From NCBI RefSeq assembly GCF_022539665.2, contig NC_081333.1, positions 4,960,001 through 5,024,000 of the forward strand: a DNA stretch of 64,000 nt, given 5' to 3'. The notes below the pieces were generated by a model that worked only from the letters and a program-made list of their open reading frames with translations, did no database searches and had not been told where the DNA came from. The position numbers and the translations under genes were made by a program. This stretch comes from Daphnia carinata. Its lineage: Eukaryota. Of this stretch, positions 3,544-42,360 are shown piece after piece (position 1 is the stretch's first letter; each line of letters opens with the position of its first letter).

Positions 3544-3741
3544 CTTAAACTTAAACCATTAAATTAAGTGTACTATTTCATTTCAGATGATCAGCCTATT
3601 CCAGAATTTTTGCCTATGATAAACTAAGATCCTAAAATGCTCCAACAAATTGCGTTAATAGTTTATTCGACGGATTCACTATTACAGGAAGTCATTACCG
3701 AAATGGAAGATGGTGATTTCTTCCGCAAATTCATGGACAAT

Positions 3742-3862
3742 CCTGCGTCTGCTGAAACTCCTGCGTCTGCTGAAATTCCCGCTTATGCTGAAATTCCCGC
3801 GTCTTCTTAAACTCCTGCATCTGCTGAAACTCCTGTGACTGCTGAAATTCCTGCTACTGCTC
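3742..3862 (+). repeat. 18-bp coding minisatellite (PASAET-like repeats) inside the MULE transposase
   Basis: About 6-7 copies of CCTGCGTCTGCTGAAA(C/T)T. Confidence 0.85.
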
Positions 3863-18886: not shown

Positions 18887-19087
18887 TGTAACGAGCCCAC
18901 AGGCTATCCGAAGACGGCCACACCCTCAACATCCCTCAAGCGTTTCACAAGTGAAAGTGAACATGTCCCCTCCCATTTTACCTTCATTTTGTATGTGTGT
19001 TAGTAGTATAAATACTGCATTTTTGTAACATGTAATTGGGACTTGTTACGACAATCCACTGCAATACACAAGGTTTGAAACTTTACA
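18887..19087 (+). repeat. 5' LTR (201 bp)
   Basis: TGTAACGAGCCC…AAACTTTACA. Contains TATAAAT. Confidence 0.97.
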
Positions 19088-21960
19088 ATTGGAGGTCCCA
19101 ACGAGACTCACACTTGTTGTCCAGTACAAAGTTTCTACCCGTACCTTATTTCAGTGATTGTGCTCTACACTTCCCCGACGAGTCTCCAACAACTCTACCA
19201 GACCAAGGAACACCATCAAAGGTAAGCGAATGCCGCTTGATCATATTGTATCAGACTACTCGTAAGGAGAATACTTTGTATCCGAACATTGCTGACGAAC
19301 TATCTCCACCGTTGTACCCCGTATTTCCCGAGCCAGACACAACCAACCAAAATCCCAACTACTCTCGAGAAAATTTTTTAGACCACTGGAAAACTCTTGT
19401 GGACTTAGAATTTGAACAAGAAGTAGAACAAAACAAAACCTATCAGACTACCACGACAAAAGCAAAAATCCAACAAATAGAATCCAAAAAACAAGAAGTT
19501 ATTAAAGAGACACACAACGCATTACAATTGTATTCATATACGTTGTTAGAACCATCGTTGCAAGTACCAAGTGGTATAACAGCAGAAACTATTACAAACA
19601 CCACAAAGACAGTCAAAAATTACGTAGAATCCCTTGGTGGCAACACCGAAAACCTTGACAGTTTATTACAGCAAATTAGCATTGTACATGGTAAAGAGAA
19701 AGAATTCTTATTAGGTACCAGCCGTATTTTACAAAAAGAAGTAGTACTTGCGCATATTACAGAGAAAAAATGTTCGTCTGAACTCAATTTTGAGTTACAG
19801 AGCTTAAGAAAGCAGCTAGAGAACAACAAGAAAAAGGCAAAGAGTTCCAAATACACCTTAAGTAGCTCCCTTGAACAACTCCAAGAAAGTAACGAAACAC
19901 TAAAAAACTCCCTTGAAAAAACTGCCAATCGAATAAGCGAATTAGAAACAAGCCTTGAAAGTGCCACAGCAACAGAAAACCAACTACACAACCTGTTACG
20001 AAAAAAAGAAGCCAATATCATAGCAGTTGAGAGAGAAGGGCAAGAAATAATTAGCAAACTTGAAAGTGAAAGAAAACAACTGGTTACGAAGTTAGAAACC
20101 GCCGAGCAACAGATAAAAGCAGCTTTAGAAACAAACAAACAACTTCAGACAGAAACAAAAGAAACAAAAGAGATCCTTGAAAAAACCTTAACAGAAAAAA
20201 TCGCCTTACGAAGAAGTCTGATAGATATTACTACAAAGAATAAAAATCTTGAAACAGAATTACAAAAAATCAACGCACAGACAATAGACCAAGAAGAAAA
20301 GATTAAGTATCTGGAGAACAGGATAAGAGAATATAGAAAGCAACAGGTAACATTCGCTGAAACCGAAGACTTAGACAACTCCAACGAACCAGGAGAGATA
20401 ACGAAATTAGTAAGTGAGATAAACGACCTAACCTCAATAACAGAAGGAGACAAATCCCTTCACTTCGAGTTAGAATCCGAACAAGTTGAAAAACTACAGC
20501 AACTCAACAACGACCTACAGAACCAAATCGAGATCCAAAACAACAACCTTCTTCAACTAGAGCGAAAGTACCAAACTCTCAAAAACAAAATCGAAATGGG
20601 ACTTTCACACAAAGAAGCTTCAAGAATTGACCGCGACACAACAGATACCGATAGCCTTGATACATCCACAACCCAACCAATTGTAAAAGCATTAGGAGAA
20701 TTATTTTCCAGAGAAGACAAAAAGTCAATTCCAATCTTCAAAGGGAAAAGTACTGATAAACTAATAACAGAATGGCTGAAGGACGCCGAACATGTCGCAC
20801 GCAACAACGACTGGGACGACAACCAAAAAATACGATTCTTCTCTGACAGACTAAAAGGCGATGCCTTAGAATGGCATGGAAACTACGTGGAAGAGCAAGG
20901 TGACGAATTAAGTTATGACGAATGGAAAACTGCCATTATTGCAAGATTCCAGGATGCATACGACTTAGCAGCACAAAGAAAAAAGTTATCCACGCTAAAA
21001 CAAAAACCTGAAGAGAAATGCAAAGCCTTTATTTCAAGAATCAACAGTCTCTACGAGTCCATTGAAGGCAAAGAAGAAAAATCTGACCAAAACCAGACCA
21101 TAGTTGAAGGTCGACTCATAAACACAGTCAAAAGAATGAGAGATTATACCAAAATCAAAATTCTGATGCAAGGCATTTTACCAAAATTCAGAGCAGAGCT
21201 CTATTTTCGAATGCCCGAAGACCCTGAAGATTTTGATCAGCTTTGTAAACAATTAATCATATCCGAAGGTATCCTATATAGCAAGGAAACTGCAGAAGAT
21301 AAGGAAATAAATGCGGTGATAGCAGGGATAACGCACCACGAAAAACAACAAGACAACGAACTTTCACAACAAAAGACAGAAATTGAGTTCTTAAAACAAA
21401 AAATTCAGGAACTGGAAAAAACTAATAAAAACCGTAACTTGGCACAGGATACTGATATAACCGTAGCAGCAGCAGATCGATACGAACCAAGATCCTCACG
21501 ATCAAGTGATCGGTACTCCAGATCACAAAATCCGCGAGTTAGATTCGACGACAGTTCAAATAGCAGAGGCCCCAGTAGTGACCGAAATTTCGGCCGAAGC
21601 AGGGAGAACAGCCCATACCGCAACAATTATACTTCACCACGAAGACAAGGTACTTCCCCAGGGTATCGACAACCCAATTACCCTTCATATCAACAAACAC
21701 CGAGACCTTCATACAACAACGGACCGACCCATTACAATCAACCACACTTTCAACCGAGCAACAATCAACAAGCGTATCACCAAAACCCAGGTTATCCACG
21801 ACAATACCCGCAGCAACGACAAAACCAGCCGAACACCCACGACACTCTTGGAAATAAGATTATTATCTGTTACAAGTGCAATAAAAAAGGACACATTGCA
21901 CGAGAATGTTGGACAGATATGGCACGTATCAACAACCCGAACCACCGTCCAATGCAGTAA
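19036..21960 (+). CDS. gag: Gag: long coiled-coil N-terminal extension, capsid, RS/Q-rich region, CCHC zinc knuckle
   Basis: 974-codon open frame. Capsid motif IPIFKGK…EWL…NDW…LKGDALEW; knuckle CYKCNKKGHIAREC. First in-frame ATG only at 20596, so the true start is uncertain. Confidence 0.92.
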   Translation: MGLVTTIHCNTQGLKLYNWRSQRDSHLLSSTKFLPVPYFSDCALHFPDESPTTLPDQGTPSKVSECRLIILYQTTRKENTLYPNIADELSPPLYPVFPEPDTTNQNPNYSRENFLDHWKTLVDLEFEQEVEQNKTYQTTTTKAKIQQIESKKQEVIKETHNALQLYSYTLLEPSLQVPSGITAETITNTTKTVKNYVESLGGNTENLDSLLQQISIVHGKEKEFLLGTSRILQKEVVLAHITEKKCSSELNFELQSLRKQLENNKKKAKSSKYTLSSSLEQLQESNETLKNSLEKTANRISELETSLESATATENQLHNLLRKKEANIIAVEREGQEIISKLESERKQLVTKLETAEQQIKAALETNKQLQTETKETKEILEKTLTEKIALRRSLIDITTKNKNLETELQKINAQTIDQEEKIKYLENRIREYRKQQVTFAETEDLDNSNEPGEITKLVSEINDLTSITEGDKSLHFELESEQVEKLQQLNNDLQNQIEIQNNNLLQLERKYQTLKNKIEMGLSHKEASRIDRDTTDTDSLDTSTTQPIVKALGELFSREDKKSIPIFKGKSTDKLITEWLKDAEHVARNNDWDDNQKIRFFSDRLKGDALEWHGNYVEEQGDELSYDEWKTAIIARFQDAYDLAAQRKKLSTLKQKPEEKCKAFISRINSLYESIEGKEEKSDQNQTIVEGRLINTVKRMRDYTKIKILMQGILPKFRAELYFRMPEDPEDFDQLCKQLIISEGILYSKETAEDKEINAVIAGITHHEKQQDNELSQQKTEIEFLKQKIQELEKTNKNRNLAQDTDITVAAADRYEPRSSRSSDRYSRSQNPRVRFDDSSNSRGPSSDRNFGRSRENSPYRNNYTSPRRQGTSPGYRQPNYPSYQQTPRPSYNNGPTHYNQPHFQPSNNQQAYHQNPGYPRQYPQQRQNQPNTHDTLGNKIIICYKCNKKGHIARECWTDMARINNPNHRPMQ
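19090..19106 (+). promoter_or_regulatory. Primer-binding site, tRNA-Gln type
   Basis: TGGAGGTCCCAACGAGA, 2 nt after the LTR. Near-complement of the tRNA-Gln 3' end (…UCUCGGUGGGACCUCCA). Confidence 0.85.
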
Positions 21961-24900
21961 ACACAATATCCCTACCAACCAACCCTTTAACACAAAATTT
22001 AGAAATAGCGATACCCAAACTAATCCGTATACCAGTAAGAATTTTTGGAAAAGAAATTAAGGCTTTAGTAGACACAGGAGCAGCAGCCAGTTTAGTTTCT
22101 GACAGCATATTTTTTAATCTAAAGGAGTATGAAGAACTTAAGATTGCCGGAGAAATAGGACCTGGAGAAATAGGACCCGGAGATTTAGGACCCCAAAATA
22201 GGACCTGGAGAAATAGGACCCGGAGAATTAGGACCCAATCATCAATCATATTTTGAAGGGTCCTATTTCTCCCTCATAAGGGTCCTATTTCTCCATAGTA
22301 ATGGTCCTATTTCTCCTTGGGAAATAGCCCTAAAGCCCGCTGTTATAAAGGAAGAACCGGACGGCTTATGTAGTTTTCCGCACTCCAAACCACGTTATCA
22401 ATTGCTCGTGTAATCAGTCCATCATAACTTTTTTGTTTGAATTCATATTTGTATTTTTTTTGCACGATTACACGCATTATCTATTGCTTTACACAGCTCA
22501 TGTATAAAAGTTATGTTTATTTTTACACAGTGTTTGATTTTTTGCCCTTGACCTTTCGTTAGTGGCGTTTCCAGTCCTAGTATCGCCCTCCCCCCTGGCT
22601 GATATCCTTATTCCATGCGAATTCCCGGAGACGAGGGGTATGCTTTCCCCTAAGTACTCCTTAATACACTGATAAATAATAAAAAAATTATATATATATT
22701 ATTTAAGACAAGCACATTTTTTAATAAAAAAAATATATGCCGCAAAACCATAAATAGAGACCTACGTGGCAAGAACGAAAATAATGAGTTCCGCTCGGAT
22801 CATGGAAGGCATGCCAGTGTATTGTTATACAAAACTATCATTGCACGGCTTGTAAATAATGGAACACGAGGCAGCTCATCCATGTCAATATCGGCAATTC
22901 ATACGATAAGTTTTTTTTTTTTTCGCTAGTTTATTCAGTTTATGCTTTCCTTTCATTTTTCGTTTTCTTAATGTTGATTTATCCCTTTTCTGTTGTTGTT
23001 CCTTTCTCTTTTCTTGTTCTTCGATGCGTTCAACCAACTTCTTTCTCGTTTGTGATGTTGATTTTATTCTCTTTCCTAATTGGTTTATCAAGCTCGCAAT
23101 CAATTCCACATTTTTTTTAACCTATTGCGCTTAGTATTCTTTTATCTGTTAAAATACAGAAAAGTAAAATTAGTTGAAGGTCTATTTTTTTTTGTCGAAA
23201 TCAAAGTTTACCTTGGCATCTGTTATTTTTCCTTTGTTTGTTTAGTTTCTTCTTCTCCCACTTATCTAACTTCCGTTTAAGTTGAGTTTTCATTTTATCA
23301 GAGTCCTGCTTTTCCCCTGAAATTGGATGGCATATGCTGGCTTGCCTTCCTTAAACAAAAAGATTATAGCACATACATACCCTACTAGCCTTTGTCCGTC
23401 CCAGGGACATCCCATCTACGTCCTGGCTGGCCGATCGGGACGTCCTATTCTGACGGCAGATGTACGTCATCAGGATGTCCTAATGTCCGGTTTTAGGGAC
23501 GTCCACTGGAGGACGTCCTACGGACGTAATTAATTGGAAGTCCTGGTAACGTCCTTATTTGGGAGTACTACGGACGTCCTTAGTTGGACGTCTGCAGGAT
23601 GGCAAATCCGTACGTTCAGTGAACGTACGTATTGGAACATCCGCGGAATGTCCGGATCGCGGCATCCAAAGGACGCAAGAAAATTTGTTTAAATTAAAAT
23701 AAAACCATAAATTTTTGGTAATTGATTTACATTTATTTTTACAAAATACAAACAATTAAACAAAAATTTAGCAGGTAACATCAAAAGCCTAAAAGGTCCC
23801 GCTTCTTCTTCACTGTCGGTGTAAATGAACTTGCCAGCTCTATCACTAGTTTTCGAACTGGCTTTTTTGGAACCAAGCTGTGTAATGGCTACATCGAAAT
23901 CGCTGTCGACCGAGGTAATTGATGTTTGCGAAGGTGTTCTCACCTGGACGGAAAGAATAAAAAATGGGAAATTGTGATCGGCGTAGAAACTCGAACAGGA
24001 AGATGATTTGAAATACCGGTCTCTTCCATCTACTGTTTGTTTCAGTATCAGAGGTAGCCGATTCGGCACTGATGGAAGATAGCGAGCGGAATCAACGACT
24101 TTCGCCCCCATTCATGTACGTGCGTTTGTATGGGTTGTCTTCCTTTAAATGATTGGGACGACCAACGATTCCATTTTTATCCTGCAACCAAATAAATTCA
24201 ACGCACACAGATTGAGAACTGTTTCCTTGTCATCGATAATTACGGAAAAGCCAAACCTTTTTCATTGCGGGGATGTTCGACTGTACGCCTGCTATGAGTT
24301 GAATGACTTGTTCAAAGCCTTCTTTTTGGATCGTTTCCCCACGTAAATATACAAGGTCATAGACATTGGAGCCATGATTGGCGTCAGTTCTGCTGGGGTG
24401 ATAGTTTTTTGTAGATCAGACAGAGACAAAATCGCTGTTGCTTGTGGAAGGTTTGTTCTCGCAATCGAAAATACGATCGTGATAATTTCTCTCTTCGGCT
24501 GACCATGTAACACAAATTTCGAACCTACAGCGAAGAACAGTTTTTACTGACAACTCTGCATTTAACGAGATAAAATAATAAAGTTAATGAGAAGTATGTT
24601 CATACCCTCTCTAGGTCTTGTAGCTGTACAAACAATTTCATACGTTCCATATCTTGCTGTTGTTGCTGACTTAATCTTTCCGTTTCAGTGGTTTTGGGTG
24701 GTAGCAATGGTCTGTCTCGGTTGGACTGGAAATTTTAAAAAAGAAAATTGATTGCTTGTAGTAGAGTCACATGAATTTGGGAGCACACACCTTTCGTTTA
24801 AGTACCCAAAAGTTGAAAATTTGATCAACGACAACGACATCGAGATCAAGATCTAGCGTCCGCGCCGTTTCATTAATGCTGGCATGCTTATAAAAGTCCG

Positions 24901-27900
24901 ATTCGATGAGTTGTAGCCTTTTCACACACAAGTAACTCTAAATAATTAAACGCAAAACGTAAAAATGTTTATGTATCCTATACTTTTGGGCACGGATTAA
25001 GTGCCTTTCTTCGACGGTCATTTCTTTTTTCAGCTTTCTAACGGATTGGGTGTTCTCCTCCCCCTCGCCTTCAACATGAGATCCCGTGATCCATATCCAA
25101 TATTGATATCATGGAAATCAATAATAAGGAATAGTGTTACGTGCTCCTGGACATTTTCTTGGGCACTGCTCAGCGATGGTACCGATTTCGGTTTGCTACA
25201 TAAGACGATAATAAATTAATGTAGTTACTAGTTGAAAATGCATCTAAGTGAAATGATAATTAAAGAATGGCTCTCAGATACTATCTAGCAGGAAGATTAG
25301 AACGAAAAGCCTTTAAACCATAAAAATAAAATTAATTTAGATTCAATTACACATATGTGTCCATTCATAGCTGGGTGTGTAGTTGGTTTTCTCCTCAACA
25401 ACAGAATTGGATGTCTTGCTTCTGTAAATTGAAATCCGTTAAAGCTCAGTACTTGCATCTTGAGATTAATGTCTTGACGTAACTAACAGCTGTAATGCTG
25501 TTATTTCATCTGAACGATAAGAAAAATGATTACATAAATTTCACGAACAAAAAATCTGTGAAAATCTAGATTACCAGAAGGATGATAGCTATAAGGCAGC
25601 TAACAAGTTGGTTCCCAAATGGTTCATGGTAAATCATGCTCTAGTTTCATGATTCTCCTTGAAAGTAACCACCTAAGAAACATTTCGGATTAGTAATGTG
25701 TGTCAAATTTCCAACTGCAACTAATAAAATTATGTCTACACTTTAAATACCTTTCCTTCCAAGTAAATTTTTTTCTTCTGTGGTGCTAATGCCAACATGA
25801 ATTTGAAATGTACCAAAACTGCCAAACCTAGGTAATAGAAAATTTTTAATTTTACTGAAACTAGCCACTTACCTGTCAAACAAACACCGCTTACAATAAG
25901 CAACTTCAACGATTCATAGAATTGTAGGATGTTGACACTTCGAGCTTGAAACAGTCGTCTGCTTGTAGTAACCGTTGCCATATATATCGTAAAAAACAAT
26001 ATTTTGCGCAAGGGCAAACAGTGTTTTATTATGAAATTAACGTTTCTTACATTATTTTTATATAATAATTTTCTTAGTTATCTGTGTATTAAGAGGTACT
26101 TATGTGCCCTCCCAAGAATCCTCATTGAGGCACGAAGAAAAAAAAAGTGAATAGCGACACTAGTAAAGGGCGGGTGATGGTAGGCCTGAAAACACCAGTG
26201 AAATGCGAAAATCCAAATACTGTATAAACAAAATTACTTTTCTATTAAATGAGCTCTAAAAAGCAATAGAAAAAGCATATAATCCTGCAAAAATATTATG
26301 AATGTAAATTTTTTTAAAAAAGTTATAATGCAGTGAAAAGGCGTCATATTGATAACGGTGTTTGAAGTGCAGAAACCAATATAAGCCGTTCGGTTTCTTT
26401 TTCAACATATCGGAAAATTAAGCCCATTACACATTTAATTTTTTTAAGATGGAGAAATAGGACCTCAAGGCTGGAGAAATAGGACCCTTCAAAAAATGTT
26501 TGAAGATTGGGTCCTATTTCTCCAGGTCCTATTTCTCCAGGTCCTATTTGTAGGTCCTAAATCTCCGGGTCCTATTTCTCCAGGTCCTATTTCTCCGGCT
26601 ACCAGAACTTAAACATGTTAAAGACTCCCCTTTGCCAATATTTAGAACGGTGTCAGGAGAAATACTAAAATCAAAAGGGAAATATGGATTTTCAATCACC
26701 ATTAACACCCATCACGTCATTAAGCATGATTTCTTTATTATGGAAAACTTGAACGAAACTTGCATATTAGGATTAGACTTCTTATCGAGCAACAATGTAA
26801 AAATTAATACTAAAAACAGGCAGATCAATTACGATCATTCCGGAAAAGAACATAGCTTTGGTAAATACACACTCCCAGTATATAGCATAACTTTTGGCAA
26901 GACAGGTATTAATATTCCACTCCTCCCAGACCGTTCGTCAGATAGTAACTACAACAACGATCTGACAGTAGCAGATTATCGCAGCCTAGAATCTTTCTCC
27001 CAATCAGAAATTAACAAGAAATCTAAGCGAATTGGACAAACCCAAGAGAGTGAAACGACTAACATCTCCGACGAGATACGCATTAAAATTGAAAATCTAT
27101 TGAAGAAACACGAAACTCTATTTGCAGAAAGAGAATCAGATTTGGGTCTAGCAACTGATGTAAAACATTCCATTAACATAGGATACAACGCCCCAATTAC
27201 TCAACGATTGCGTAGAACACCAGAAGCATTAAAACTAATTGTCAAAACAAAGATTGAAGTAATGGTAAATAACAATATTATTAGAGAAAGTCACAGCCCA
27301 TTTGCAGCAGCAATTGTAATGGTTCCCAAAAAAGATGGAGAAATGCGTATGTGTATTGATTATAGGGCACTTAACAAAATAACCGTAAAAGACAAATACC
27401 CATTACCAAGAATCGACGACACAATTGATGCATTGAGCGGATCAGTTTACTTCTCAACATTGGACTTACTAAGTGGCTACTGGCAGATCGAGATAGAAGA
27501 AAACGACAAACACAAAACCGCCTTCATTTGTGAACTTGGACAATACGAATTTAATAGAATGCCATTTGGACTAACAAATGCACCAAGCACTTTTCAACGA
27601 GCAATGAACAACATATTGAAATCAGTATTGTTCAGGTTCGCATTGGTTTACCTGGATGACATCATAGTGTTCAGTAATGATATTGCTGAACATGTGATAC
27701 ATCTAGAAGCAGTGTTTAAACTTCTTAAAGACGCAGGACTAAAATTAAAAAGAAAGAAATGCGAATTTTTCAAAGAAGAATTAGACTATTTAGGATATAT
27801 TGTTTCGAAAAAAGGAATAACACCGAGTACAAAAAAGTTAGAAGCAATCAGCAAATACCCAGCTCCCAAAAACGTGAAAGAATTAAGCTCATTTCTAGGT

Positions 27901-30237
27901 TTGGCTAGCTATTACAGAAAGTTCATCAGGGCTTTTGCTGATAAAGCCCACCCACTGACAGCGCTAACGAGAAAATCAGCCGAGTGGAAATGGGGAGAGG
28001 AACAAAGGGACGCCTTTGATTGTATCAAGAACTGTCTCATAACTAGACCTATCCTAGGGTATCCAGATTTCATGCGCGAATTTATCATCTACACAGATGC
28101 CTCAGGATACGGTATAGGAGCAGTCTTGGCTCAGATGCAAACTCTACCTCAATCAGCGGATTCAGCGGAGTCCGACGTACAGGAACCCCGTGAATCAGAC
28201 GGCGCGGAAGTCGTCATAGCGTATAGCTCTAAACATCTGAACGACCGCGAAGCCAAGTGGTCAACCACAGAGAAAGAGGCTTACGCCATCATCCACGCAA
28301 TTGACGTATTTAGAACGTATCTATACGGACGCAGATTCACCGTATTTACAGACCATAGACCTTTAGAATGGTTAATGAGCGAGACAGAACCCGCAGGAAG
28401 ATTAGCTAGATGGGCACTAAAAATACAAGAATTCGACATCGTCATTGGGTACCGGCCTGGGAAGTCGCACCAAAATGCAGACACCCTAAGCCGTATTCCC
28501 ATAGTGCCAATAGCACGAGTAGAAACAAGGGCAATGGAAAGAGGAACTGTCATAAGAGAGCTAGAAAATATTCGAAAAGAAGGTGAAAATCTAAAAGAAA
28601 AACTAAGGATTGAAAGATTAAAGAAACCAGAACAACTGGAGAAAGAAAACGAAAGTATTCAAAAAGAAAACGAAAGTTTTGAGAGGGAAAGTCAAAGGAA
28701 GAGCGTAGGTTTTGAAAGAGAAATTGGAAGTGAAAGTAAAAGGTCTGAGAAAGAAGACAGATGGATAGAATTACAGCAAGCAGATAAATATTGTCAAAAA
28801 CTAATGATGGATATACAAGAAGATAGCCAGAAAAATAGAAATAAAAAATTCTCAAGCAACTTTATAATCAATGAAAAGGGTCTATTAACAGATAGACAAG
28901 GAAAATTAGTAGTCCCTGTACCGTTAATCGACGGAATTTTACGAGCAAATCATGATCACATGATGGCAGGGCATTTAGGAATCGAAAAAACAATAGCCAG
29001 ACTTAGAGAACAATACTTCTTCCCATACATGAGACAAAACGTAACAGAGCACATCAAAAATTGCCTTAAATGCGCAAAACGCAAGGCTGTGGGAGGAAGT
29101 AAAGCACCATTGCAACCTATGCCCCCAGCCGAAAGGGTGTGGGAAAGACTTGCGATGGATATTGTGGGTCCCGTTCAAGAAAGCGCAAAGGGACATAAGT
29201 ATATTTTAGTCCTATCAGATTATGCCAGTCGTTTCGTCTTCACGGTTCCAATGAGAGATCAAACTGCCCAAACAATTGCTACAATACTGGTTAATGATAT
29301 TTATACAAAATATGGATCCCCCGAAGTAGTACTAACAGATCTAGGAACTAATTTCCTGTCGAGCTTAATCCAAGATATTTGCAAATTATTTAAAATCAAA
29401 CAAATCAGAACAACAGCATACCATCCCCAGACAGACGGATTAGTAGAACGATTTAACAGAACCCTATGTGACATGTTGGCTTGCTACGTAACGGATGAAC
29501 CAGAAAATTGGGACAAATATCTACCATTTGTCACATTTGCTTACAACACAGCGAAGCAATCAACACTGCAACAAAACCCATTCTTTCTATTCTTCGGGAG
29601 ACAACCAGTGCTCCCAAACGACATCAAAATAGACAGGCGATACGAAACATACGAGGATACCAGTGTAATGTACTCACACCAATGGAAGAAGGCTCAGCAA
29701 CTAGCGAAGGAACACCTATTTCGGGCACAGACAAAACAAAAAAGATACTACGACAAAGGAACACAAGCGATCAAATATAACATTGGTGACTTTGTGCTAC
29801 TGAAAGCTCCACCAACTGCCGGAAAATTCATCAACAGGTGGAATGGACCATTCAAAATCATCAGAAATTTCTCAAATCTCACTTATGAGATTCAACACGC
29901 GAGCAATGAAAAACTAAAATCAGTGGTACACGTCAACCGCCTAAAGCTCTACGTCCCGGCAAACCAAGAAACAGAAGAATTATCTAGTGTTCCACAACAA
30001 CCAGGAAGTGAAACAGTGCGACGAGGACCAGGCAGACCAAGAAACAACTTCATCAACAACAAAAGAATACCTGTCCGTAGAGCGTGTTGGCATCGGCATC
30101 ATCATGCAGCAGAAACGGAAAATTGTAAAATCATCGCACCAAATCTCCCCGGTCCTATACCAATTAATCCTGCACACACTAGAATGACGAATCCACGATA
30201 CAACTTACGGCAACGCAACGAAGTCTCGAGATTCTAA
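21885..30237 (+). CDS. pol: Pol (protease-RT-RNase H-integrase), split in the protease by a MULE (22142-26612); otherwise open
   Basis: LVDTGA (~22065); YLDD; TDAS…EKEAYA…TDH; HHCC and DDE integrase; W-x-GPF. Removing the insert and one TSD copy restores the frame …EELKHVKDSPLPIFR…. Pol is in the -1 frame relative to gag. Confidence 0.96.
22142..26603. mobile_element. Non-autonomous Mutator-like element with long diverged TIRs and GAAATAGGAC arrays
   Basis: 9-bp TSD AGAACTTAA (22133-22141 and 26604-26612). G…C termini. 15-bp GGAGAAATAGGACC(T/C) repeats at both ends, inverted. Degenerate inverted similarity extends to ~22700 and ~26060. Confidence 0.95.
23380..25380. mobile_element. Probable second DNA transposon nested in the MULE (CCC start, GGACGTCC palindrome array, decayed minus-strand gene)
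   Basis: CCCTACTAGC start, then many GGACGTCC-like palindromes at 23400-23670, then exon-like remnants. Right boundary is a guess (…AGCTGGG at ~25376). No TSD confirmed. Confidence 0.45.
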
Positions 30238-30261: not shown

Positions 30262-33200
30262 ATGGAACTGATACTATCACTCATCCAATTACTCACCATC
30301 ATTCCATCCACATATCCCATCTATTCAACCGTATGCGACTGCCAGAACGTAAAGACCAGAGGAATTTTAGATATAGAGGGACCCTATTACTGCAATAACA
30401 AAGAATCAGATACAGCTCACTTACCCAGAATACCCACGTTGTACACTTTAAAAACAACACAAAAACCAGCAGCCTCTTGGAAAGGCTGGACCTGCAAGCA
30501 ATGGATAAAAACGAAGAAAATAACTGGGTCATTCTGGATCGGATCTTTCGACACCATATATTCACAAGAAACTAAACTAATTTCCCCACTGGAATGCTGG
30601 AGAATGGTGAACGACAAGAAATGTGGCGATAATAACATGCAGACCGGACCAGCGGGTCTGAGTTTCACAGCCACCCCGACAGGCGAAGGGCAATGGTATG
30701 CCATAAAAACATATCACACCCTCAACTGTGTTGCAGAACAAATCACCTTACGGCAGGAAAAACAAGACGACCCAATCGAGAGCCCATTTGGACCATTAAA
30801 TACTACCCAGCAAGAAGGACACTTCATCCAAAATCAAAACACAATAGTATGGGGAGATAGGACAACAAATAATTCATATTCTCAAACCTTGATCAAAGGA
30901 AGCGGTTATCTGGAACTTCCGAGAATACCGGAACGCGAAAACACCAGCCGTCTTTACGACACCAATCGACAGATCGAGATTTCATTCTTCAACAAACCAG
31001 ATCGGGACATAACACCACAAGGTTACAAAGTTGTGGGCGTACCGCTCACATACCTAATCTTTCCAACCGAAACAACGAGAAAATTGTACGAGATGTTCAA
31101 AACAACTATACATACATGTATACAAAATACTCACATAGATACATCGGTATGCAAGGACTACAGGGAACTCCAGTTAACCAAGCGGAAACGATCCATTCAA
31201 CAGGAAGTTACATTCTTGCTCAACGCCCCCTCGGAAGACTCAGGAAAACGTCTGTACAGCATTTCGTACGCCTGGGGACCAATAAGAATGGGATATCAAC
31301 AGGCAATCAGGATCAACGAGAAGGACCGGAGTGTAAATTACAACGCCACTATATACATAATATACAAACCCGACGAAAACACTCAGTTAACCGCCCACTT
31401 TCGTCTCAAAGACGATGATCCACTTCCTCAAGGATCAGAATTCGAATACATCGTTGACCAAACAATAAGAATCCAGAACAGTAATATCTGTATCACGGAA
31501 GGAGAAGCAGGCCGACTAATTGTTGCTAAATGCTCAGAATTTTCAACACGGTGGATTCTAGATCAACAAAACCATCAATTAATTTCACAAGAATCGTATC
31601 TCTGTATTACACTAGGAACATACCAAGCTATCATATTGACAGAATGCAGAGATGATAAGAACAGCGTAACACAAAAATAGATCTTTGAAACTGTCAACAC
31701 CAATCCAGACATCATAGAAAATTTCCCAGACACAACTTTAGCAGAAATGCAGGAAATTCAACAAGAACAACGGAAGGCAATCACAACCACGATTAATTCG
31801 CCGCTATTTGGAGGAATTTTAAAAACTAATCACGGTAGCGGAAATATAATCTGGGATATGATTGCCTGGGGCCTATTGAAAAACGGAAAAACACCAAACG
31901 AAAAATGTCTAACACACCATGGAGTAAACAAGCAAATGACATTAGAAGAATGCGACAAAGAGTGGCCGCAATGTCAAGAAGAACTAAGAAAACTAATTAA
32001 CAGCAACGATCCATTAGTACAATCACAAACAATGGTAGCCAACTGTAGCAAAGCAACAGAACGAGGACAAGCTTTCGAATATACATCTGATTTCACCATC
32101 AGACCGTTCAACACAAACACCTGTATCAAAGCCAATACGACAATGCTAGTACTTCAAGAGTGCGCTAGCACCAGCTCAATCTGGGGCACATTTGAGCACA
32201 CAGGACAGCTCATGGCAACAGATAGAACTGGGCTACATTCACCCTCATCAGACAGGAAGTGTCTCACACAGAGAGTAGGACGGGTGACCCTGGGGCATTG
32301 TCACAGCTCCAGCCAAAAACAGCACTTTAACTTTGAATATCGCAACCCACACCAAATACGGACTCTCTCAGCGGCAGCCATCATAGCACTGCACACTAAA
32401 CAGCCATTGGACGGGAAAACACTCCCAACCATACCACCACTAATGAAAAGAGAGGATAACAACCAATCAGAGAACAGCAAAACTTTGGCCACACCCCCTG
32501 CCACGCCCACAACAGAAAAACACACAACAACGACAAGCGTTACAACGACTACAAAGCCCACAATAAAAACCACATTGGGAACAACAGCAAAAACAACGGT
32601 AAAAAGCACTACGACAATTAAACCAGTTACAAGCACATCAGCTAGCAAACCCACCACAACACAGAAAGTGACAACTAAACCCAGTATGACATCAACGTCA
32701 ACAAAACCCACCACAACTACAAAACCAATAATCACATCGACAAGCACTAAACCCACCACTACTACTAGACCTACGGCAACTGCTAAGATAACTTCAACTT
32801 CAACAACCACTACAACTACAAAACTTACGACAACAACAACAATGGCCACTACAACAAGTTCCACAACAACAGAGAAAACAACAACGCCTACTACGACAAG
32901 TTCCACAACAACAGCGACAACAACGACGCACCAGCCAAGCTCAATAACGCCGAGCACAAAAACAGTAATCGAAAGTTCGACTACCCAACAATCATCAACA
33001 CATACTGCCGGGAGGTCGGAGAAAAAGGCCCAGACGAAAAAGGCCCAGACGAAAAAGGCCCGCGAAAAAGGCCCAGACGAAAAAGGCCCATACGAAAAAG
33101 GCCCACTTTTTTCCAAATTCAAAAGTGGGCCTTTTTCTCCATTGGACTGGGCCTTTTTCTCCGCTCAATTTCCATTTTCTTACAAACTTTATTTTTGTTT

Positions 33201-36200
33201 CGAAAATTGTATTTCCCACCTCCTATTCCGTGGAATTTGGAATGTACAAAAGTTGCTGAAACCGTGATTTTCTTTAAGGTTTGCAGAGATCAAACAATGT
33301 TAGCGTTTGTACGCTAGTTAATCTTTGATTATTTATTCGGTTGCAATCTAATTTCGGATTATATTAGTATTTATATATTGCTAATATCCCGTTTAATAAA
33401 GTTCATTTTTCACAATTTTTGTTTATTGAACTACCATCGCTTTTTTAAATATAATACAAAAAATAAATGTTTTTCGCACTTAGCCTTGTTCTGTCCACCC
33501 TCTTTCATTATTCCCCCAACCCCCAGTCCATCTCCCATATAGCTTCTTTTTGTCGATACTTATGCCATAGGTAAAGACCACTGATTCGTTGGGAATACGG
33601 AAACTGAATGAGTTCCGCGGGGCTTTTGTGGTTGCTGGGAACAAAAATATATGTTACCACGAAGACTAGTTTATTATCATTAACATTTAATAAATAATGT
33701 TTATAGGAATAATATTACAAACTTAAATTATCGTCTGAGGCAAGGAACAAAACAAAGATTATGTAATTCAATATTGATTCTAATACCATTTATTCCTTAT
33801 ATATTTTCAATTCTTTTAACAATTACAAAGAGCCCAATAAATATATTAAAATCATAACCTACTGGTATAAATGATTCTGTTCATTCTTCGTGTCCTGTTT
33901 TCACCTTTTGCACATTTTCAAGCAGCTATTGATTACCTAATTACACATCACATAATACATTGAGATATAAGGAAGCTTTACACTTTACGTTAACAAAGCT
34001 ACTAATAATGACAAATCAATTTTCTACCATGACGGACTTTTTTTTAAAATGAGAGTCTGTTATTAGTGAAGACACTAAACCTTTTTAAATGAATCTAAGA
34101 TATTTTTTCTTCAAATTTTCCACGATCATGGAAGGCATGCCAGTGTATTTTTCTATAAAACTATCACGACATGGACGCACATGAAAGAACAAGAGTTTAG
34201 CTCATCCATGAGTCAGTATCAGTCTTTCATACGGTAAATTTGCCTTTTTTCTTTAGTTTATTCACTTTATGTTCTTTCTTTTCAGTTTTATTTTTCTCAA
34301 TGTTGGCTTTTCTCTTTTTCTGATGTTATTCCTTTCTCTTTTCCTTTTCTTCGATTCGTTCAGCGCAGTTTATGTTACTTTCTGATTTGATCTCGTTCAT
34401 TAATTGATTTGGCAAGCAATTCCACATAGTCTTTTTACCTATTGCAATACAGAAAGGTTAAAAGTTTTGAAGATCTTACAAATATTTTTGTCAAATTGAA
34501 AGTTTACCTGAAAACCTTCAGCTATTTGCAGAGCACCATTTCATGCCTGTTTCTCTTCAATGCTTCTTGCATTCTCAGCTTCAGCTTGGCCTACCAAGCT
34601 ATTCATTTTTGGTTTAAGTTTTATTTTCTTTCATTTTAATCGTTGCCACTTCTGGATATAAAGTGGTCTTTTTCAGAATGGGTGAGGAATTAGATAGTTC
34701 TCCAAAATCAAATTTGCTGGAAACTAGGCAGCCTTCACTGTTAAAAATTGGTGTTGCCAGTGTACTTGCTAGTCTTGGTTGAGGAATTTCTGTTTTAACA
34801 AACTCTGAAAGACCAGAGGTTGATGACACAGATACTGCCTTGGTGGCTCGAGCATGTTTGGCAATTCAGGACCTCTTCTTCTTACTTTTTCTTTTTAATT
34901 TCTTCTTCATTCCCTCTAACTTCCGTTTAAATTGGATTTTCGTTGTCTTATCAGACAATTCAAGCTTTTCCTCTAAAAATCAATGGAATAAACTGGCCGG
35001 TCTTCCTTAAATGTAAATGTTAAAACATACCTGTTAAGTGTGAGGCGTTCATTCAGTTTATGTTCTTTCTTCTCAGTTTTCTTTTTCTTAATGTTGGCTT
35101 TTCTCGTTTTCTGTTGTTATTCCTTTCTCTTTTCCTATTCTTCGATGCGTTCAGCCAACTTCTTTTTACTATCTGATTTGATTTCATCTTGTTTCATAAT
35201 AGATTTAGCAAGCCATTCCACATTGTTTTTTACCTATTGCAATACAGAAAGGTTAAAATTATTTAAGATCTTACAAATATGTATGTCAAATTGAAAGGTT
35301 ACCTGAAAACCTTCAGCTCTTTGCAAAGCACCTTTTCATGCCTGTTTCTCTTCAATACTTCTCACATTCCAACTTCAGCTTGGCCATCCAAGATTTTCAC
35401 TTTGGCTTTGAGTTTTTTTTTATCGTTGCTACTTTTCAATCTAAAGTGTTCTTGTTCAGAATGGGTGAGGGATTAGATAGTTCTCCTAAATCAAATTTGC
35501 TGAATACTAGGCAGCCTTCGCTGTTGAAAATTGGTGTTAGCGGTGTACTTGTTGGTCTTGGTTCAGGAATACCTGTTTTGACAAACTCTGTGGGATCAAA
35601 GGTTGATGACACTGATGCTGCCTCGGTGGCTTGTGCAAGTTGGGCAATTCAGGACCACTTCTTGTTATTTTTCTTTTTTAATTTCTTCTTCTTCAATTTT
35701 TCTAACTCCTTTTAAGTTTGGTTTTCATTGTTCTATCAGACAAATCCAGCCTTTTCCCTGAAAATAGATGGAATAAGCTGGCCCGTCTTCCTTAAACGTA
35801 AAGATTAACACATACCTGTTAAGTGTGAGGTGTTAGCTGCTAGACATTCTTTCTGTTCAACACCAACCTTATTGCTATTGAGATCGTCAACTGTAGATAC
35901 ACTTTCAATTGGAATGTTGGTCAATAAGCTAGAAATCATGATTTTTTGGGTCCACATTTCCTATAAATTTTGTTTAGACGACACTTTCAAGTTCTTGTTT
36001 TCTCTTTTTCCATTTACAAAAACTGCCTCTCATATTATAACCTTTAAACTTTATTATTATATACCTTGATTTCTCAACATTATCACTGATCACTCCATAG
36101 ATCAAACTATACGAAACAAGTCTATTGTTATTTTCTTCAGGGAACGGCATTTTCAAGTCAAATCTAGCGTCAGGACGCCACTAACAATGGCGGACGGTTT

Positions 36201-39200
36201 TTAACATAAAATTTTAAAATTTTTTAATTCTTTTATTACAAATTCAACAAAATTTAGTTCCTTTGTATAACAATAATAATGAATTATAATAATAGAACAA
36301 TAACAAAGGAACTAAATTTTGTTGAATTTAATAAAGCTTTAGCTAAAAGTTTTAATAACAGCTTTCCATCATCCGCTCTGCAAAGAGCTGAAGGTTTTCA
36401 GGTAAACTTTCAATTTGACAATGTAAGATTTTAAATAATTTTAACCTTTCTGTATTGCAATAGGTAAAAAACCATGTGGAATTGCTTGCTAAATCTATTA
36501 AGAAACAAGATGAAATCAAATCAAATTGTAAAAGAAGTTGGCTGAACGCATCGAAGAATAGGAAAAGAGAAAGGAATAACAAGAGAAAACGAGAAAAGCA
36601 AACATTAAGAAAAAGAAAACTGAAAAGAAAGAACATAAACCGAATGAACACCTCACACTTAACTGGTATGTGTTAACATTTACATTTAAGGAAGACCGGC
36701 CAGTTTATTCCATTGATTTTCAGGGAAAAAGCTGGAATTGTCTGATAAGACAACGAAAATCAAACTTAAACGGAAGTTAGAGGGAATGAACAAGAATTTA
36801 AAAAGGAAAAGTAAGAAGAAGAGGTCCTGAATTGCCAAACATGCTTGAGCCACCAAGGCAGCTTCTGTGTCATCAACCTCTGGTCTTTCAGAGTTTGTTA
36901 AAACAGAAATTCCTAAACCAAGACTAGCAAGTACACTGCCAACACCAATTTTTAACAGTGAAGGCTGCCTAGTTTCCAGCAAATGTGATTTTGGAGAACT
37001 ATCTAATTCCTCACCCATACTGAAAAAGACCACTTCAGATCCAGAAGTGGCAACGATTAAAATGAAAGAAAATAAAACTTAAACCAAAAATGAAAATCTT
37101 GGTAGGCCAAGCTGAAGTTCAAATGCAAGAAGTATTGAAGAGAAACAGGCATGAAATGGTGCTCTGCAAATAGCTGAAGGTTTTCAGGTAAACTTTCAAT
37201 TTCTTCAAAACTTTTACTCTCAAGATCTTCAAAACTTTTAACCTTTCTGTATTGCAATAGGTAAAAGACTATGTGGAATTGCTTGCCAAATCAATTAATG
37301 AACGAGATCAAATCAGAAAGTAACATAAATTGCGCTGAACGAAACGAAGAAAAGGAAAAGAGAAAACAATAACAACAGAAAAAAAGACAAACCAACATTA
37401 AGAAAAATTAAACTGAAAAGAAAGAACATTAAGTGAATAAACCAAAGAAAAACAGTCAAATTTATCGTATGAAATAATGATACTGTCTCATGGACGAGCT
37501 AAACTCGTGTTCTTTCATGTGCAAGCCATGTCGTGATAGTTTTTTATAACAATACACTAGCATGCTTTCAATGACCGTGGAAAATTTAAAGAAACAAAAT
37601 CTAAGATTCATTTTAAAAGGTTTAGTGTCTTCACCAATAACAGACTCCCATAAAAAAAGTTCTTCATGGTATAAAATAATTACAATGGATTTGTAATTGT
37701 TAGTAGCATTGTTAATGTCAAGTGCAAAGCTTCCTTATATTTCACTGTAGTATGTGTGTGTAATAAGGTAACCAATAGATGCTAGAAAATGTGCATAAGG
37801 GAAAACAAGACACGAAGAACGTAAAAAATCATTTATAATTGCTGGAAAAGCGCGCGTTCTTACCAGAGACGTAGATGGTTCTCTCGTACTAAAGGTGACG
37901 TTATTCTTTAACAAAAGGTTGCTCTGTAACAAAAGCAATGCATTAACTATTTAAGTTTTACTCATAGACGTTCCTAGGCAAATCAAATATTCCTGTTTTG
38001 CTCGAAATATTTATTGCTTGGGTGAAAAGCGCTCCAATCCCAGTCAGCAGTCACCGCCTAGCTGGCATAGTTATAGCAGTAGGTTATGATTTTAATACAT
38101 TAATTTGGCTCTTTGTAATTGTGTGAAGAATTGAAAATGTGATAAGGAAATAAATGGTATGAGAATGAATATTGAATTATAATATTCTTTTTTTTTACTT
38201 TCAAAACTACTTTGTAAATTTCACACGATAAGTGCGAAAAACATGTATTTCTTATATTATATTTAAAGCAGCTATAGTAGTTCAATAAACAAAACTTGTG
38301 AAAAATGAACTTTATTTAACGGGATATTAGCAATAGATATATACTAACATAATTCAAAATCAGATTGCTACCGAATAAAAAAATATAAATTACCTAGCGT
38401 ACAAACGCTAACATTGTTTCATCGGCAAACCTTATTGAAAGTCACGGTTTCAGCAACCTTTGTACATTCCAACTTCCACGGAATAGGAGGTGGGAAATAT
38501 TTTTTGGAAACATGTTAAAGATTGTAGGAATTTGGAAATTTAACGGAGAAAAAGGCCCAGTCAATGGAGAAAAAGGCCCACTTTTCAATTTGGAAAAAAG
38601 TGGGCCTTTTTCGTGTGGGCCTTTTTCGTATGGGCCTTTTTCGCGGGCCTTTTTCGTCTGGGCCTTTTTCGTCTGGGCCTTTTTCTCCGCCAATCTACTG
38701 CCGGAGTAACCCCTTTAGCACTAACGGGAACAACGTCTACAACAGAAGGAACTCAAATTCAGGCCATCGAAGAAAGCAGTATTCGAAACTTGCCGTTAGC
38801 TGATTCTTTGATAATTTCAATGGATCAAAAAGCTGAAGATACATCAAACAATGAAAATTTAGAAGCCGATTTACCCAAAAACATTGAAGAATTCAACGAC
38901 AAAATTAAATACGAAATAAGTAAAATGCACGACCAATATAAGATAAGCATCGAAACTGAACACGAAAACAAGTTGGCAAAAGAAATTCGGGACGTTTATT
39001 GTCAACTATCAGCAATCAAAAGAACACAAGCAGTTATATTAGCCCAAACCAACGGAATTTTAGCAGCAGCAGCAGTAGGTTTACCAATCTGCACAAGACT
39101 ACAAGGCTTCGGTCAAGCAATGACACTTCAACAATGCGAGGCAAAAAGAATTTTTATATCAGCAAACGAAACCAAATGTGGATTTCAGCCGTTTTTTACT

Positions 39201-40049
39201 TACGAAGGAAAAAACTGTACGATTGGAACAGATGGATGGTCAATTCATCCATATTCTGATTGTTTCTGGAAAACACCTTTGGTAAATTTAAATGGAAATC
39301 CACACACATGGGAACACAATTCTACGACAGGAGATTGGATACGCCAGACACCTAGCATTCACATGCCTAATTTAGACCTCATTTCAGAATTTGAAGAACT
39401 CCATCTTAACGATTTCGACTTCGCGCTGAAAAGCCATCCAGCACACGAGACGATGGAAATGGAACAATTAAATATTCTAAATGACCTAGTTGGCAGAATG
39501 CAAGAAGGCAACTCCAATTCTGTTGGAGACATTGTAATGTCAGAACAACAAGATAATCAAATAGGAAACATGTTCTCATGGTTCGACAAACTAAAAATAA
39601 TTGGTCTATCAGCGATAGGATTTGTACTATTCCTCGTATGTTTACGAATCTTCATTATTTGCAACCCCATCTCGAAGATAAAAGAACATATCCGCAGAAA
39701 ACGGAACTTTACAACCAGATACGATGATGGCGTAGAGGAAGAACACGAACTCGCATCAATGATACCGGCACGAGAAACAAATTACCATTCGGAAATAGCA
39801 ATCGAACAACCGTTCCTAAGAACAACCGCCCCTGCACAACTAACAACAGAAAGACAAGGTCAAATGCGCCCTCCCCGACCAAGTGCACCAAATTCATTAA
39901 TTTACCCCTCTATCGAAACAACTGACACAATCACACGATGTACAGGAAAACACACCATGTGCACTTACGTCGTCGGATATGGCATGGTTTGGGAAGACCT
40001 ATGCCGTTGCATGTCCGAAACAGACAATAGTAATTCAGCCAGAAAGTAA
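30262..40049 (+). CDS. env: Env-like type I membrane glycoprotein (reconstructed 30262-33011 + 38705-40049, ~1364 aa); interrupted by one TAG (31678) and a MULE
   Basis: N-terminal hydrophobic signal; Cys-rich ectodomain; KRKR furin site (31180-31191); QxW/C-rich ricin-B-like repeats; Thr-rich tract; TM IIGLSAIGFVLFLVCLRIFIIC; ~130-aa tail. The three ORF pieces join in one frame. Confidence 0.9.
33012..38695. mobile_element. Foldback-type Mutator-like element (5.7 kb, ~2.3-kb inverted arms) inserted in env
   Basis: 9-bp TSD TACTGCCGG (33003-33011 and 38696-38704). GAAAAAGGCCC arrays at both ends. Arms ~33012-35330 and ~36375-38695 are diverged reverse complements. Confidence 0.95.
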
Positions 40050-40704
40050 AAGTCCCAAGGTCATTGAAATTAAAAGTAGCCACTAAACATAACCCCTGAC
40101 AAATTTAATTAATTACAAAATAAATTAGCTCCCAGAAAATAACACACTTATCAGCATTTTTTTTCCGACCACTTAGGTGATTTTTAAAATATATCCCATA
40201 CTCGTAACTTTATAGTAAAACAAAGAGTAGAGACAAAACCCGAATAACAATTTTGTATTCCAAACTAACATGAACTAAAAAATTCAAAATAGAAAACCTT
40301 TGGGATAGACAAAACAAAAATTACAAACCAAACCAAGTCAATAACAAAATCATCGGAGAAAAAGCAGTGTAGTGTAACAAAGAACGACAGAAACTAACGC
40401 ACGAAGAAAAAGAAAGACGCAAGAACCCCTATAAGAAAAGACAATGACTTAAAAAGGAAAATAGAAAGTTCAAAATGTAACGGTATATTCATCAATTCGC
40501 CCCACGGCGAAATAGAAGACGGAACACATTAAAATAGAAGAAACTACCTGTTTTGAAATTAAGAAGAGGGGAACAAGAATTTATGAAAAACTCTGCAAAA
40601 GAAGACTTTTCAAAAAACTAACCTCTTCCCAGTGTTTCAACGACATAATTCAGACAAAGTTCTACAAAGAAAAGTGTCATCACAAGTCAACCTTTACTCT
40701 AAAA

Positions 40705-42144: not shown

Positions 42145-42159
42145 GAAGAGGGGAAGGAA
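42145..42159 (+). promoter_or_regulatory. Polypurine tract
   Basis: GAAGAGGGGAAGGAA immediately before the 3' LTR. Confidence 0.9.
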
Positions 42160-42360
42160 TGTAACGAGCCCACAGGCTATCCGAAGACGGCCACACCCTC
42201 AACATCCCTCAAGCGTTTCACAAGTGAAAGTGAACATGTCCCCTCCCATTTTACCTTCATTTTGTATGTGTGTTAGTAGTATAAATACTGCATTTTTGTA
42301 ACATGTAATTGGGACTTGTTACGACAATCCACTGCAATACACAAGGTTTGAAACTTTACA
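42160..42360 (+). repeat. 3' LTR (201 bp)
   Basis: Identical by eye to 18887-19087. Confidence 0.97.

What the first reader, a model, noticed from the sequence alone, without database searches (positions are those of the whole stretch)
19088..20598. Gag frame is open for 520 codons with no AUG; AUG strongly depleted in all frames
Seen: the first in-frame ATG is at 20596 (GAAATGG, strong context), just before the capsid domain. In 19088-20595 I count only three ATGs (19230, 19688, 19770). All are out of frame and open uORFs of 11 codons or fewer; roughly 20 would be expected from base composition (rough estimate). The frame still encodes an ordered coiled coil. Inference: non-AUG initiation of a long Gag plus leaky scanning to a short capsid Gag, analogous to CUG-initiated MLV glyco-Gag.
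Basis: partly seen in the sequence, partly recalled or inferred. Interest (0 to 1): 0.75.

Follow-up and report, generated by a model that had tools for sequence, protein, structure and literature searches.

The report
Two-start Gag, foamy-like spliced Pol
This is a broken copy of an envelope-carrying water-flea retrotransposon whose relatives start Gag at an ordinary AUG but keep 1-1.5 kb of coding sequence almost free of AUG, likely so that ribosomes scan past it to make a second, short capsid protein, and one sequencing run holds a spliced form predicted to make Pol from its own AUG, as foamy viruses do.

Summary
Observation confirmed: three ATGs in 19088-20595, none in frame, 20.5 expected. 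The non-AUG reading is not supported. Relatives start Gag at an in-frame AUG homologous to 19230 (29 of 31 proteins bearing the first-helix motif; DNA of L001); here that AUG is out of frame, so this copy is most likely broken. The AUG desert itself is real and clade-wide: 11 Met in 10,658 extension residues versus 108 in 10,025 downstream in 30 divergent Gags, 29 of 30 with a Met just before the capsid; L001 has no ATG in any frame for 1.54 kb. Likely mechanism: weak first AUG, leaky scanning, long and short Gag. New: run X1 holds a GT-AG joint (intron 19222-21447) that removes both Gag AUGs; the next AUG (21906) opens Pol and is conserved in 3 relatives. That works like foamy-virus spliced pol, but the element is a Ty3/gypsy errantivirus, nearly identical in env to catalogued Dcar_errantivirus_6. 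No translation was measured.

The parts
18887..19087 (+). 5' LTR, 201 bp, TG...CA; 4-bp target duplication ACTA at 18883-18886 and 42361-42364; TATA-like TATAAATA at 19007
   Evidence: identical to 42160-42360
19090..19107 (+). primer-binding site, likely tRNA-Gln
   Evidence: 2 mismatches (by eye) to the 12-nt tRNA-Gln end listed in PMC13524379 supplement; identical start in L001
19222..21447 (+). GT-AG intron, 2,226 nt, donor AAG|GTAAGC, acceptor CACAG|G inside gag; removes AUG 19230 and AUG 20596
   Evidence: joint 19219->21446 'GT..AG (cut +2)' in run X1; sites; both motifs at matching places in L001
19230..19265 (+). family Gag start AUG1, weak context (-3 C, +4 C); in this copy out of frame, an 11-codon ORF; likeness to relatives passes from this frame to the long frame within about 19230-19275
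19233..20595 (+). AUG desert coding the Met-free helical N-terminal extension of Gag; two out-of-frame ATGs (19688, 19770)
20596..21960 (+). AUG2 (strong context, -3 G, +4 G) and predicted short Gag of 454 aa: capsid about 20734-21105, zinc knuckle about 21865-21909
   Evidence: (PF19259, PF03732, PF00098)
21448..21905 (+). ATG-free stretch from the splice acceptor to the Pol AUG
   Evidence: 0 observed, 4.0 (P 0.008) codon shuffle, 2.3 (P 0.047) within-amino-acid; second-longest + strand ATG gap of the window, 21311-21906
21906..30237 (+). pol from its own AUG (MLDR..., inside the zinc-knuckle codons, -1 frame to gag): protease, RT, RNase H, integrase; broken by an insertion in the protease
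22133..26612 (.). inserted element with long terminal inverted repeats and 9-bp duplication (22133 and 26604), MULE-like (label recalled)
30262..40049 (+). env, HSV/gB-type per the catalogue, with ricin-B lectin repeats and a Thr-rich stretch; acceptor-like TTTTCTTTTCGCAG directly before its ATG; broken by a stop at 31678-31680 and an insertion
33003..38704 (.). second inverted-repeat insertion, 9-bp duplication (33003 and 38696), inside env
40516..41946 (+). accessory ankyrin-repeat ORF inside the element
   Evidence: PF12796 E 2e-25
42145..42360 (+). polypurine tract (42145-42159) and 3' LTR (42160-42360)

Best explanation
The window holds a broken copy of a Daphnia envelope-carrying Ty3/gypsy element whose family keeps a weak first AUG, a long AUG-free coding stretch and a strong second AUG, likely giving a long coiled-coil Gag and a short capsid Gag by leaky scanning, while a spliced form seen in one run would make Pol from its own AUG. 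Shown: AUG1 is the family start; it is out of frame in this copy; the desert and AUG2 are conserved; the GT-AG joint exists in X1; the next AUG is in the Pol frame. Inferred: that ribosomes use AUG1 and AUG2 in this way, that the spliced form is an mRNA translated to Pol, that the same donor serves env, and that this copy makes only the short Gag. The job of the long form is unknown; the most likely role, by analogy with foamy Gag's N-terminal coiled coils (PMC7828637 passages), is a matrix-like link between capsid and Env or membranes.
For: AUG1: 29 of 31 proteins bearing the first-helix motif have a Met 40-58 residues upstream; ATG 19230 lies 47 codons upstream in another frame (78 hits scanned, 47 lacked the motif). 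L001 has the AUG in DNA, in frame for 781 codons. Desert: 2 Met in 9,952 residues in 24 relatives; 2/5,364 versus 46/4,472 in 13 representatives, Fisher 5.5e-14 (set picked). Fixed-rule set: 11/10,658 versus 108/10,025, Fisher 9e-23; 24 of 30 have none; 29 of 30 have a Met within 85 residues of the capsid anchor, 60% expected. Nucleotide level: L001 has no ATG in 2399-3938; before a G, N/D/H/Y codons are NAC 18:0 NAT against 32:40 elsewhere; extension versus control regions P=0.0013. Context: residue after M1 begins with G in 0 of 24, after M2 in 18 of 22; 5 of 28 versus 15 of 29, P=0.012. Splice: 57-nt contig with 0 mismatches, GT..AG ends; donor is the only [AG]GGT[AG]AG in 19036-22100; acceptor motif at the matching place in L001; Q-E/Q-D at that site in 14 of 14 close relatives chosen. 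Pol AUG: MLDR start in L001, P0054, P0055; the Pol frame opens only 7 codons before it in window and L001, and my slippery-site scan of the window's overlap found none.
Against: No translation data. The joint rests on one contig in one run labelled 'DNA?', shorter side 27 letters, laid at 80% likeness, where the tool warns about short sides; X1 may be the window's own sample. Out-of-frame depletion in this copy alone is not significant under the strictest control (P=0.35; NAT-before-G P=0.22). Only one relative's DNA was obtained (L001), itself damaged: a frame break near 4740, no Met at the AUG2 place, one ATG (5041) between acceptor and Pol AUG. NAT before G is mildly avoided in control regions too (P=0.014). 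W and C are also rarer in the extension. Four distant rows of A1 (P0046, P0049, P0050, P0053) lack Q-E/Q-D at the acceptor site. E-C, whose codons hold the Pol AUG, is common in zinc knuckles anyway (75 of 92). Relatives share ancestry, so P values overstate independence; first Met of metagenome gene calls may be GTG or TTG. No close intact copy was found, so the frame offset could be fixed in this subfamily.
Confidence: 0.6

Rival explanations
1. One reading: the long Gag starts at a near-cognate codon, either as the family rule or as a derived state of this subfamily after AUG1 slipped out of frame.
For: The frame is open from 19036; in-frame near-cognate codons with -3 A exist (ATA 19243, TTG 19246, TTG 19276, ATT 19288 with +4 G). 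The X1 contig spanning 19193-21475 has the same offset with 0 differences and no alternative contig was listed. No close copy with an in-frame AUG was found.
Against: All informative relatives start at an AUG homologous to 19230. The first 8 codons of the AUG frame, not of the long frame, resemble D. magna and D. sinensis N-termini (scores 18 and 22 versus -17 and -9). This copy is broken in pol and env as well. X1 may be the source sample, and contigs drop rare variants.
Confidence: 0.08
2. Programmed +1 frameshift: ribosomes start at AUG 19230 and shift into the long frame within the first dozen codons, so the offset is regulatory.
For: The AUG frame is one base behind the long frame and ends at a stop after 11 codons; same X1 evidence as above.
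Against: No relative shows the offset; proteins from D. magna, D. sinensis and metagenomes read straight through.
Confidence: 0.05
3. The short Gag is real but comes from its own RNA (internal promoter as for Ty1 p22, or a second splice) or by shunting, reinitiation or an IRES, not by linear leaky scanning.
For: Ty1 makes a truncated Gag from an internally initiated RNA (PMC5408680 passages). Scanning 1.3-1.5 kb of coding sequence is long.
Against: An RNA starting near AUG2 would not need AUG avoided from codon 2 onward in all three frames. Only one joint was listed in 18700-22130. Weak AUG1 and strong AUG2 contexts fit scanning.
Confidence: 0.15
4. The desert is a by-product of A-rich coiled-coil composition or protein-level selection against Met, and Pol is made by ordinary -1 frameshifting; the joint is incidental.
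For: Weak out-of-frame signal in this copy; W and C also low; gag and pol overlap by 76 nt in the -1 frame.
Against: Met is 25-fold lower while Leu, Ile and Val are not. Synonymous codon choice in L001 avoids out-of-frame ATG. Met reappears just before the capsid in 29 of 30. The joint has canonical ends conserved in L001.
Confidence: 0.12

Closest known systems
Branchiopoda_Diplostraca_Dcar_errantivirus_6 (Chary and Hayashi 2026, PMC13524379)
   Same: Env domain I-II stretch matches 229 of 230 residues by eye; gag-pol-env Ty3/gypsy layout; listed as ENV_HSV type, 7 copies, no PBS found.
   Different: The main text has 0 hits for 'splic', 'frameshift', 'translation', 'initiat', 'coiled', 'ankyrin', so the expression scheme is not described there. 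The listed copy ends at its contig end. This copy carries a gag frame offset, an env stop and two insertions.
Foamy viruses (Spumaretrovirinae), spliced pol mRNA
   Same: Pol made apart from Gag from a spliced RNA with the acceptor inside gag; N-terminal Gag coiled coils (PMC7828637 passages).
   Different: RT is Ty3-like (297.7 bits to Ty3-G Gag-Pol versus 125 to Pr125Pol; that Pr125Pol is foamy is recalled); Gag has a CCHC knuckle, which spumaviruses lack (PMC2717909 passage). Works like, not a member; convergence or shared ancient state is untested.
MLV glyco-Gag (CUG start; recalled, one search found no paper)
   Same: A long and a short Gag from one frame by leaky scanning.
   Different: The long form here starts at a weak AUG in relatives; the extension is 300-550 residues, helical and Met-free.
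Ty1 p22 (PMC5408680)
   Same: An N-terminally truncated Gag from internal AUGs, with leaky scanning between two close AUGs.
   Different: p22 needs an internally initiated RNA and lacks part of the capsid; here the short form keeps the whole capsid and the AUGs are 1.0-1.6 kb apart.
Ty1/copia spliced gag RNA (EVD, copia; PMC5580714)
   Same: Splicing sets the Gag:Pol balance in an LTR retrotransposon.
   Different: There the spliced RNA makes Gag; here it drops Gag and would make Pol. That paper found no conserved splicing in Arabidopsis Ty3/Gypsy.

Membership tests
Ty3/gypsy errantivirus (env-carrying) | Paired LTRs, PBS, polypurine tract, target duplication | tested here: met
Ty3/gypsy errantivirus (env-carrying) | Pol order protease-RT-RNase H-integrase, RT of Ty3/gypsy type | tested here: met
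   (Ty3 best named hit). No RT tree was built.
Ty3/gypsy errantivirus (env-carrying) | env of F or HSV/gB type after pol | tested here: met
   229 of 230 residues (by eye) to Dcar_errantivirus_6, typed ENV_HSV by its authors; fold not tested here
Ty3/gypsy errantivirus (env-carrying) | Intact ORFs in this copy | tested here: not met
   gag offset, pol insertion, env stop and insertion; a defective member
Ty3/gypsy errantivirus (env-carrying) | Multiple near-identical copies in the genome | not testable with these tools
   no genome held; catalogue lists 7
glyco-Gag-type non-AUG extension | Conserved in-frame non-AUG start upstream, no AUG for the long form | tested here: not met
   relatives have an in-frame AUG; leader not conserved as protein
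glyco-Gag-type non-AUG extension | Signal anchor and glycosylated long form | not tested
   no membrane prediction was run
Foamy-type pol expression (works like) | Spliced RNA with acceptor inside gag | tested here: inconclusive
   joint in one run labelled DNA?; motifs conserved in L001
Foamy-type pol expression (works like) | Pol has its own AUG, first after the acceptor | tested here: met
   window 21906; MLDR in L001, P0054, P0055; L001 has one intervening ATG
Foamy-type pol expression (works like) | Pol protein made without a Gag fusion | not testable with these tools
   needs protein or ribosome data
Spumaretrovirinae (membership) | Spuma-type RT; Gag without Cys-His box | tested here: not met

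The most novel reading that the evidence does not exclude
A widespread clade of Ty3/gypsy elements runs a complete frameshift-free expression programme from one 5' end: a splice donor welded 8 nt ahead of a deliberately weak Gag AUG, kilobase-scale leaky scanning that sets the ratio of a coiled-coil matrix-bearing Gag to a bare capsid Gag, and a foamy-like spliced pol mRNA. This would be a spliced, Gag-independent Pol outside foamy viruses, and a two-Gag particle design conserved across Gags under 30% identical.
Probability: 0.5. Interest if true: 0.75.

Novelty: new variant of a known kind. Interest (0 to 1): 0.6.

Why it matters
Spliced, Gag-independent Pol is described as unique to foamy viruses among retroviruses (PMC7828637). 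Finding it in an invertebrate Ty3/gypsy errantivirus would bear on whether it is convergent or ancient, and on how Pol is packaged without a Gag tether. The AUG desert shows selection on 1-1.6 kb of coding sequence for ribosome passage across very divergent elements, gives a sequence-only marker of two-isoform Gags, and predicts particles with mixed long and short Gag. It also warns that Met-free frames in single copies can be mistaken for non-AUG starts.

Tried and rejected
No whole genome is held, so sister copies could not be compared. The run search listed no RNA holder; X1 and X2 are 'DNA?': no evidence on expression. X2 gave 0 contigs. In X1 no contig at 99% or more covered the flank or the LTR before 19069, and one contig there carried adapter-like letters; this looks RNA-like, but a hole proves nothing. 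Contig depths (joint 52.4, unspliced 50.5, flanking 123-130) are not expression levels. Read-level evidence over pol and env was not obtained, so the env splice and the state of the two insertions in X1 stay open. Viral contigs: 25 pattern matches, none confirmed. Metagenome contigs: 1 locus from 102 stretches. Foldseek of the N-terminal model: no match at E<=0.001; wider fold searches were not run. The Pol N-terminus search found only 2 of 69 candidates. The idea that the intron's 742 whole codons show an upstream in-frame start was rejected: with AUG1 as start the phase follows from this copy's offset. P0002 and P0009 were dropped from counts as chimeric gene models; 26 of the 52 hits went into A1, 24 into; 30 of the 150 listed rows (387 at E<=0.001) met the fixed rule. 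Earlier findings of this scan: none. Paper searches for a prior report: (spliced pol) returned no gypsy case in the listings; (leaky scanning of Gag) returned only Ty1 p22 as relevant; led to the catalogue paper. Subscription journals are largely missing, so absence from print is not established.
Full report
Observation. The frame 19036-21960 is open for 974 codons and has no Met before residue 521, ATG 20596. In 19088-20595 there are three ATGs, at 19230, 19688 and 19770, all out of frame, opening 11, 8 and 3 codons; 20.5 are expected from base composition and 12.4 from dinucleotides. Among 500 tiles of the same length on both strands only 1 is this low, median 25. Two cautions apply. The first 65 codons are LTR, primer site and leader, and an open run of that length has a 3% chance. 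In this copy alone the out-of-frame deficit fades when the protein is held fixed: P=0.03, 0.07 and 0.35 under three shuffles.

The element. Identical 201-bp LTRs (18887-19087, 42160-42360), a 4-bp target duplication, a primer site and a purine tract bound it. Inside lie gag (PF19259, PF03732, PF00098), pol (protease, RT, RNase H, integrase), env with ricin-B repeats, and an ankyrin ORF. RT is nearest Ty3 among solved structures. Named homologues are from Daphnia magna, carinata, sinensis and galeata. A 230-residue env stretch matches Dcar_errantivirus_6 at 229 positions by eye, an HSV/gB-type errantivirus with 7 copies in Chary and Hayashi, PMC13524379 (seen: abstract, section 14, part 1 of section 6, term passages, rows of supplements 1 and 2). 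The copy is defective: an insertion in the protease, a stop at 31678 and an insertion in env.

Non-AUG start: not supported. Of 78 Gag hits, 31 bear the first-helix motif and 29 of these have a Met 40-58 residues before it; ATG 19230 is 47 codons before it, in another frame. Many of the 29 are one D. magna family, so they are not independent. That family begins MPFDSP; the window's AUG frame begins MPLDHI and its long frame does not resemble it. Five D. magna gene models that run upstream read GKR before that Met, as does the window in the AUG frame. L001, a 45%-identical relative and the only one with DNA, has the same donor GTAAGC, the same 8-nt spacing and an in-frame AUG open for 781 codons. 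So 19230 is the family start and this copy has a frame break within about 19230-19275. The X1 contig over 19193-21475 shows the same letters, so it is probably not an assembly slip; X1 may be the source sample. No close intact copy was found, so a fixed, regulatory offset is not excluded.

The desert is real and clade-wide. In 24 relatives with a full N-terminus (picked) the extension has 2 Met in 9,952 residues; 13 representatives under 60% identity give 2/5,364 against 46/4,472 downstream. As a check by fixed rule, the 30 new 50%-cluster representatives whose capsid match starts at residue 250 or later give 11/10,658 against 108/10,025; 24 have none, one outlier has six, and 29 have a Met within 85 residues of the capsid anchor where 60% would by chance. 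Some are kin of the first set. In DNA, L001 has no ATG in any frame for 1,543 nt; 1 in 520 codons against 10.0 expected with the protein fixed, and its two-fold codons before a G are all NAC (18:0, against 32:40 elsewhere). That is selection on the triplet, not on methionine. Contexts fit scanning (Kozak rule, recalled): AUG1 has -3 C and +4 C in window and L001, AUG2 has -3 G and +4 G; the residue after M1 implies +4 G in 0 of 24, after M2 in 18 of 22, and 5 of 28 against 15 of 29 in the second set. Inference: unspliced RNA yields a long Gag from the leaky AUG1 and a short capsid Gag from AUG2. This copy would make the short form only, and its two internal ATGs may be decay. The extension folds as helices with no structural match; a matrix-like role is a guess by analogy.

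Laying run X1 on 18700-22130 gave one joint, 19219 to 21446, GT..AG: intron 19222-21447, donor AAG|GTAAGC, acceptor CACAG|G. It removes both Gag AUGs. The next ATG, 458 nt on, is 21906, in the Pol frame, reading MLDR into the protease; the gap is the second-longest ATG-free stretch of the + strand. L001 has both splice motifs at matching places and MLDR opening a 281-codon frame; P0054 and P0055 begin MLDR. The Pol frame opens only 7 codons earlier and my limited scan found no slippery site in the window. Limits: one 57-nt contig, 27 letters on the short side, one run labelled 'DNA?', so it may be an RNA or a DNA copy of a spliced RNA; L001 has one ATG between acceptor and Pol AUG. An acceptor-like tract directly precedes the env ATG at 30262, so the donor likely serves env too; this was not observed.

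Comparison. Spliced, Gag-independent Pol with the acceptor in gag is the foamy-virus scheme (PMC7828637; passages seen), but RT type and the zinc knuckle exclude membership (PMC2717909 passages). Ty1 p22 is a short Gag from an internal RNA (PMC5408680; passages). Copia-type elements splice to make Gag, not Pol (PMC5580714; passages). MLV glyco-Gag is recalled only. The catalogue's main text has no hit for splicing, frameshift, translation or initiation; its GitHub data and unread supplement parts were not seen and may hold Gag 5' ends. Searches listed no report of either feature in gypsy elements, within an open-licence library only.

Verdict. Observation confirmed; non-AUG start not supported (about 0.13 left for non-AUG or frameshift in this subfamily); leaky scanning to a short Gag likely (about 0.75); spliced pol likely (about 0.75); whole model 0.6. 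The element is catalogued, its expression scheme appears not to be: new variant of a known kind, interest 0.6.

Noticed in passing
window 40516-41946: An ankyrin-repeat ORF lies inside the LTRs after env; a D. magna gene model (P0028) also joins capsid and ankyrin domains, so it may be a family accessory gene. The catalogue's main text does not mention ankyrin.
   Followed up: partly
window 30262-33267: The gB-type env carries ricin-B lectin repeats and a long Thr-rich, mucin-like stretch, a possible glycan-binding attachment module.
   Followed up: partly
window 22133-26612 and 33003-38704: Two different inverted-repeat elements with 9-bp duplications and subterminal tandem repeats sit in one LTR element whose LTRs are still identical; the second holds internal ~790-bp duplications and a 588-nt inverted pair.
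   Followed up: partly
P0009 (D. carinata gene model): Its front half is the Gag of a different family, also Met-free for 333 residues of coiled coil up to a Met just before its capsid; its back half is 99% identical to this Gag.
   Followed up: partly
window 45094-47122; ORF 45277-47397 (-): An array with 144-nt period (13 copies) inside a 706-codon minus-strand frame.
   Followed up: no
window 51546-53946 (-) and 57659-59482 (-): Further long minus-strand frames and a 102-nt perfect repeat at 51176 and 59616, possibly another mobile element.
   Followed up: no
run X1 on window 18886-19054 and 20815-21142: Diverged contigs (about 91-93% alike) show related subfamilies in the same run; the capsid one differs mostly by transitions.
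   Followed up: no
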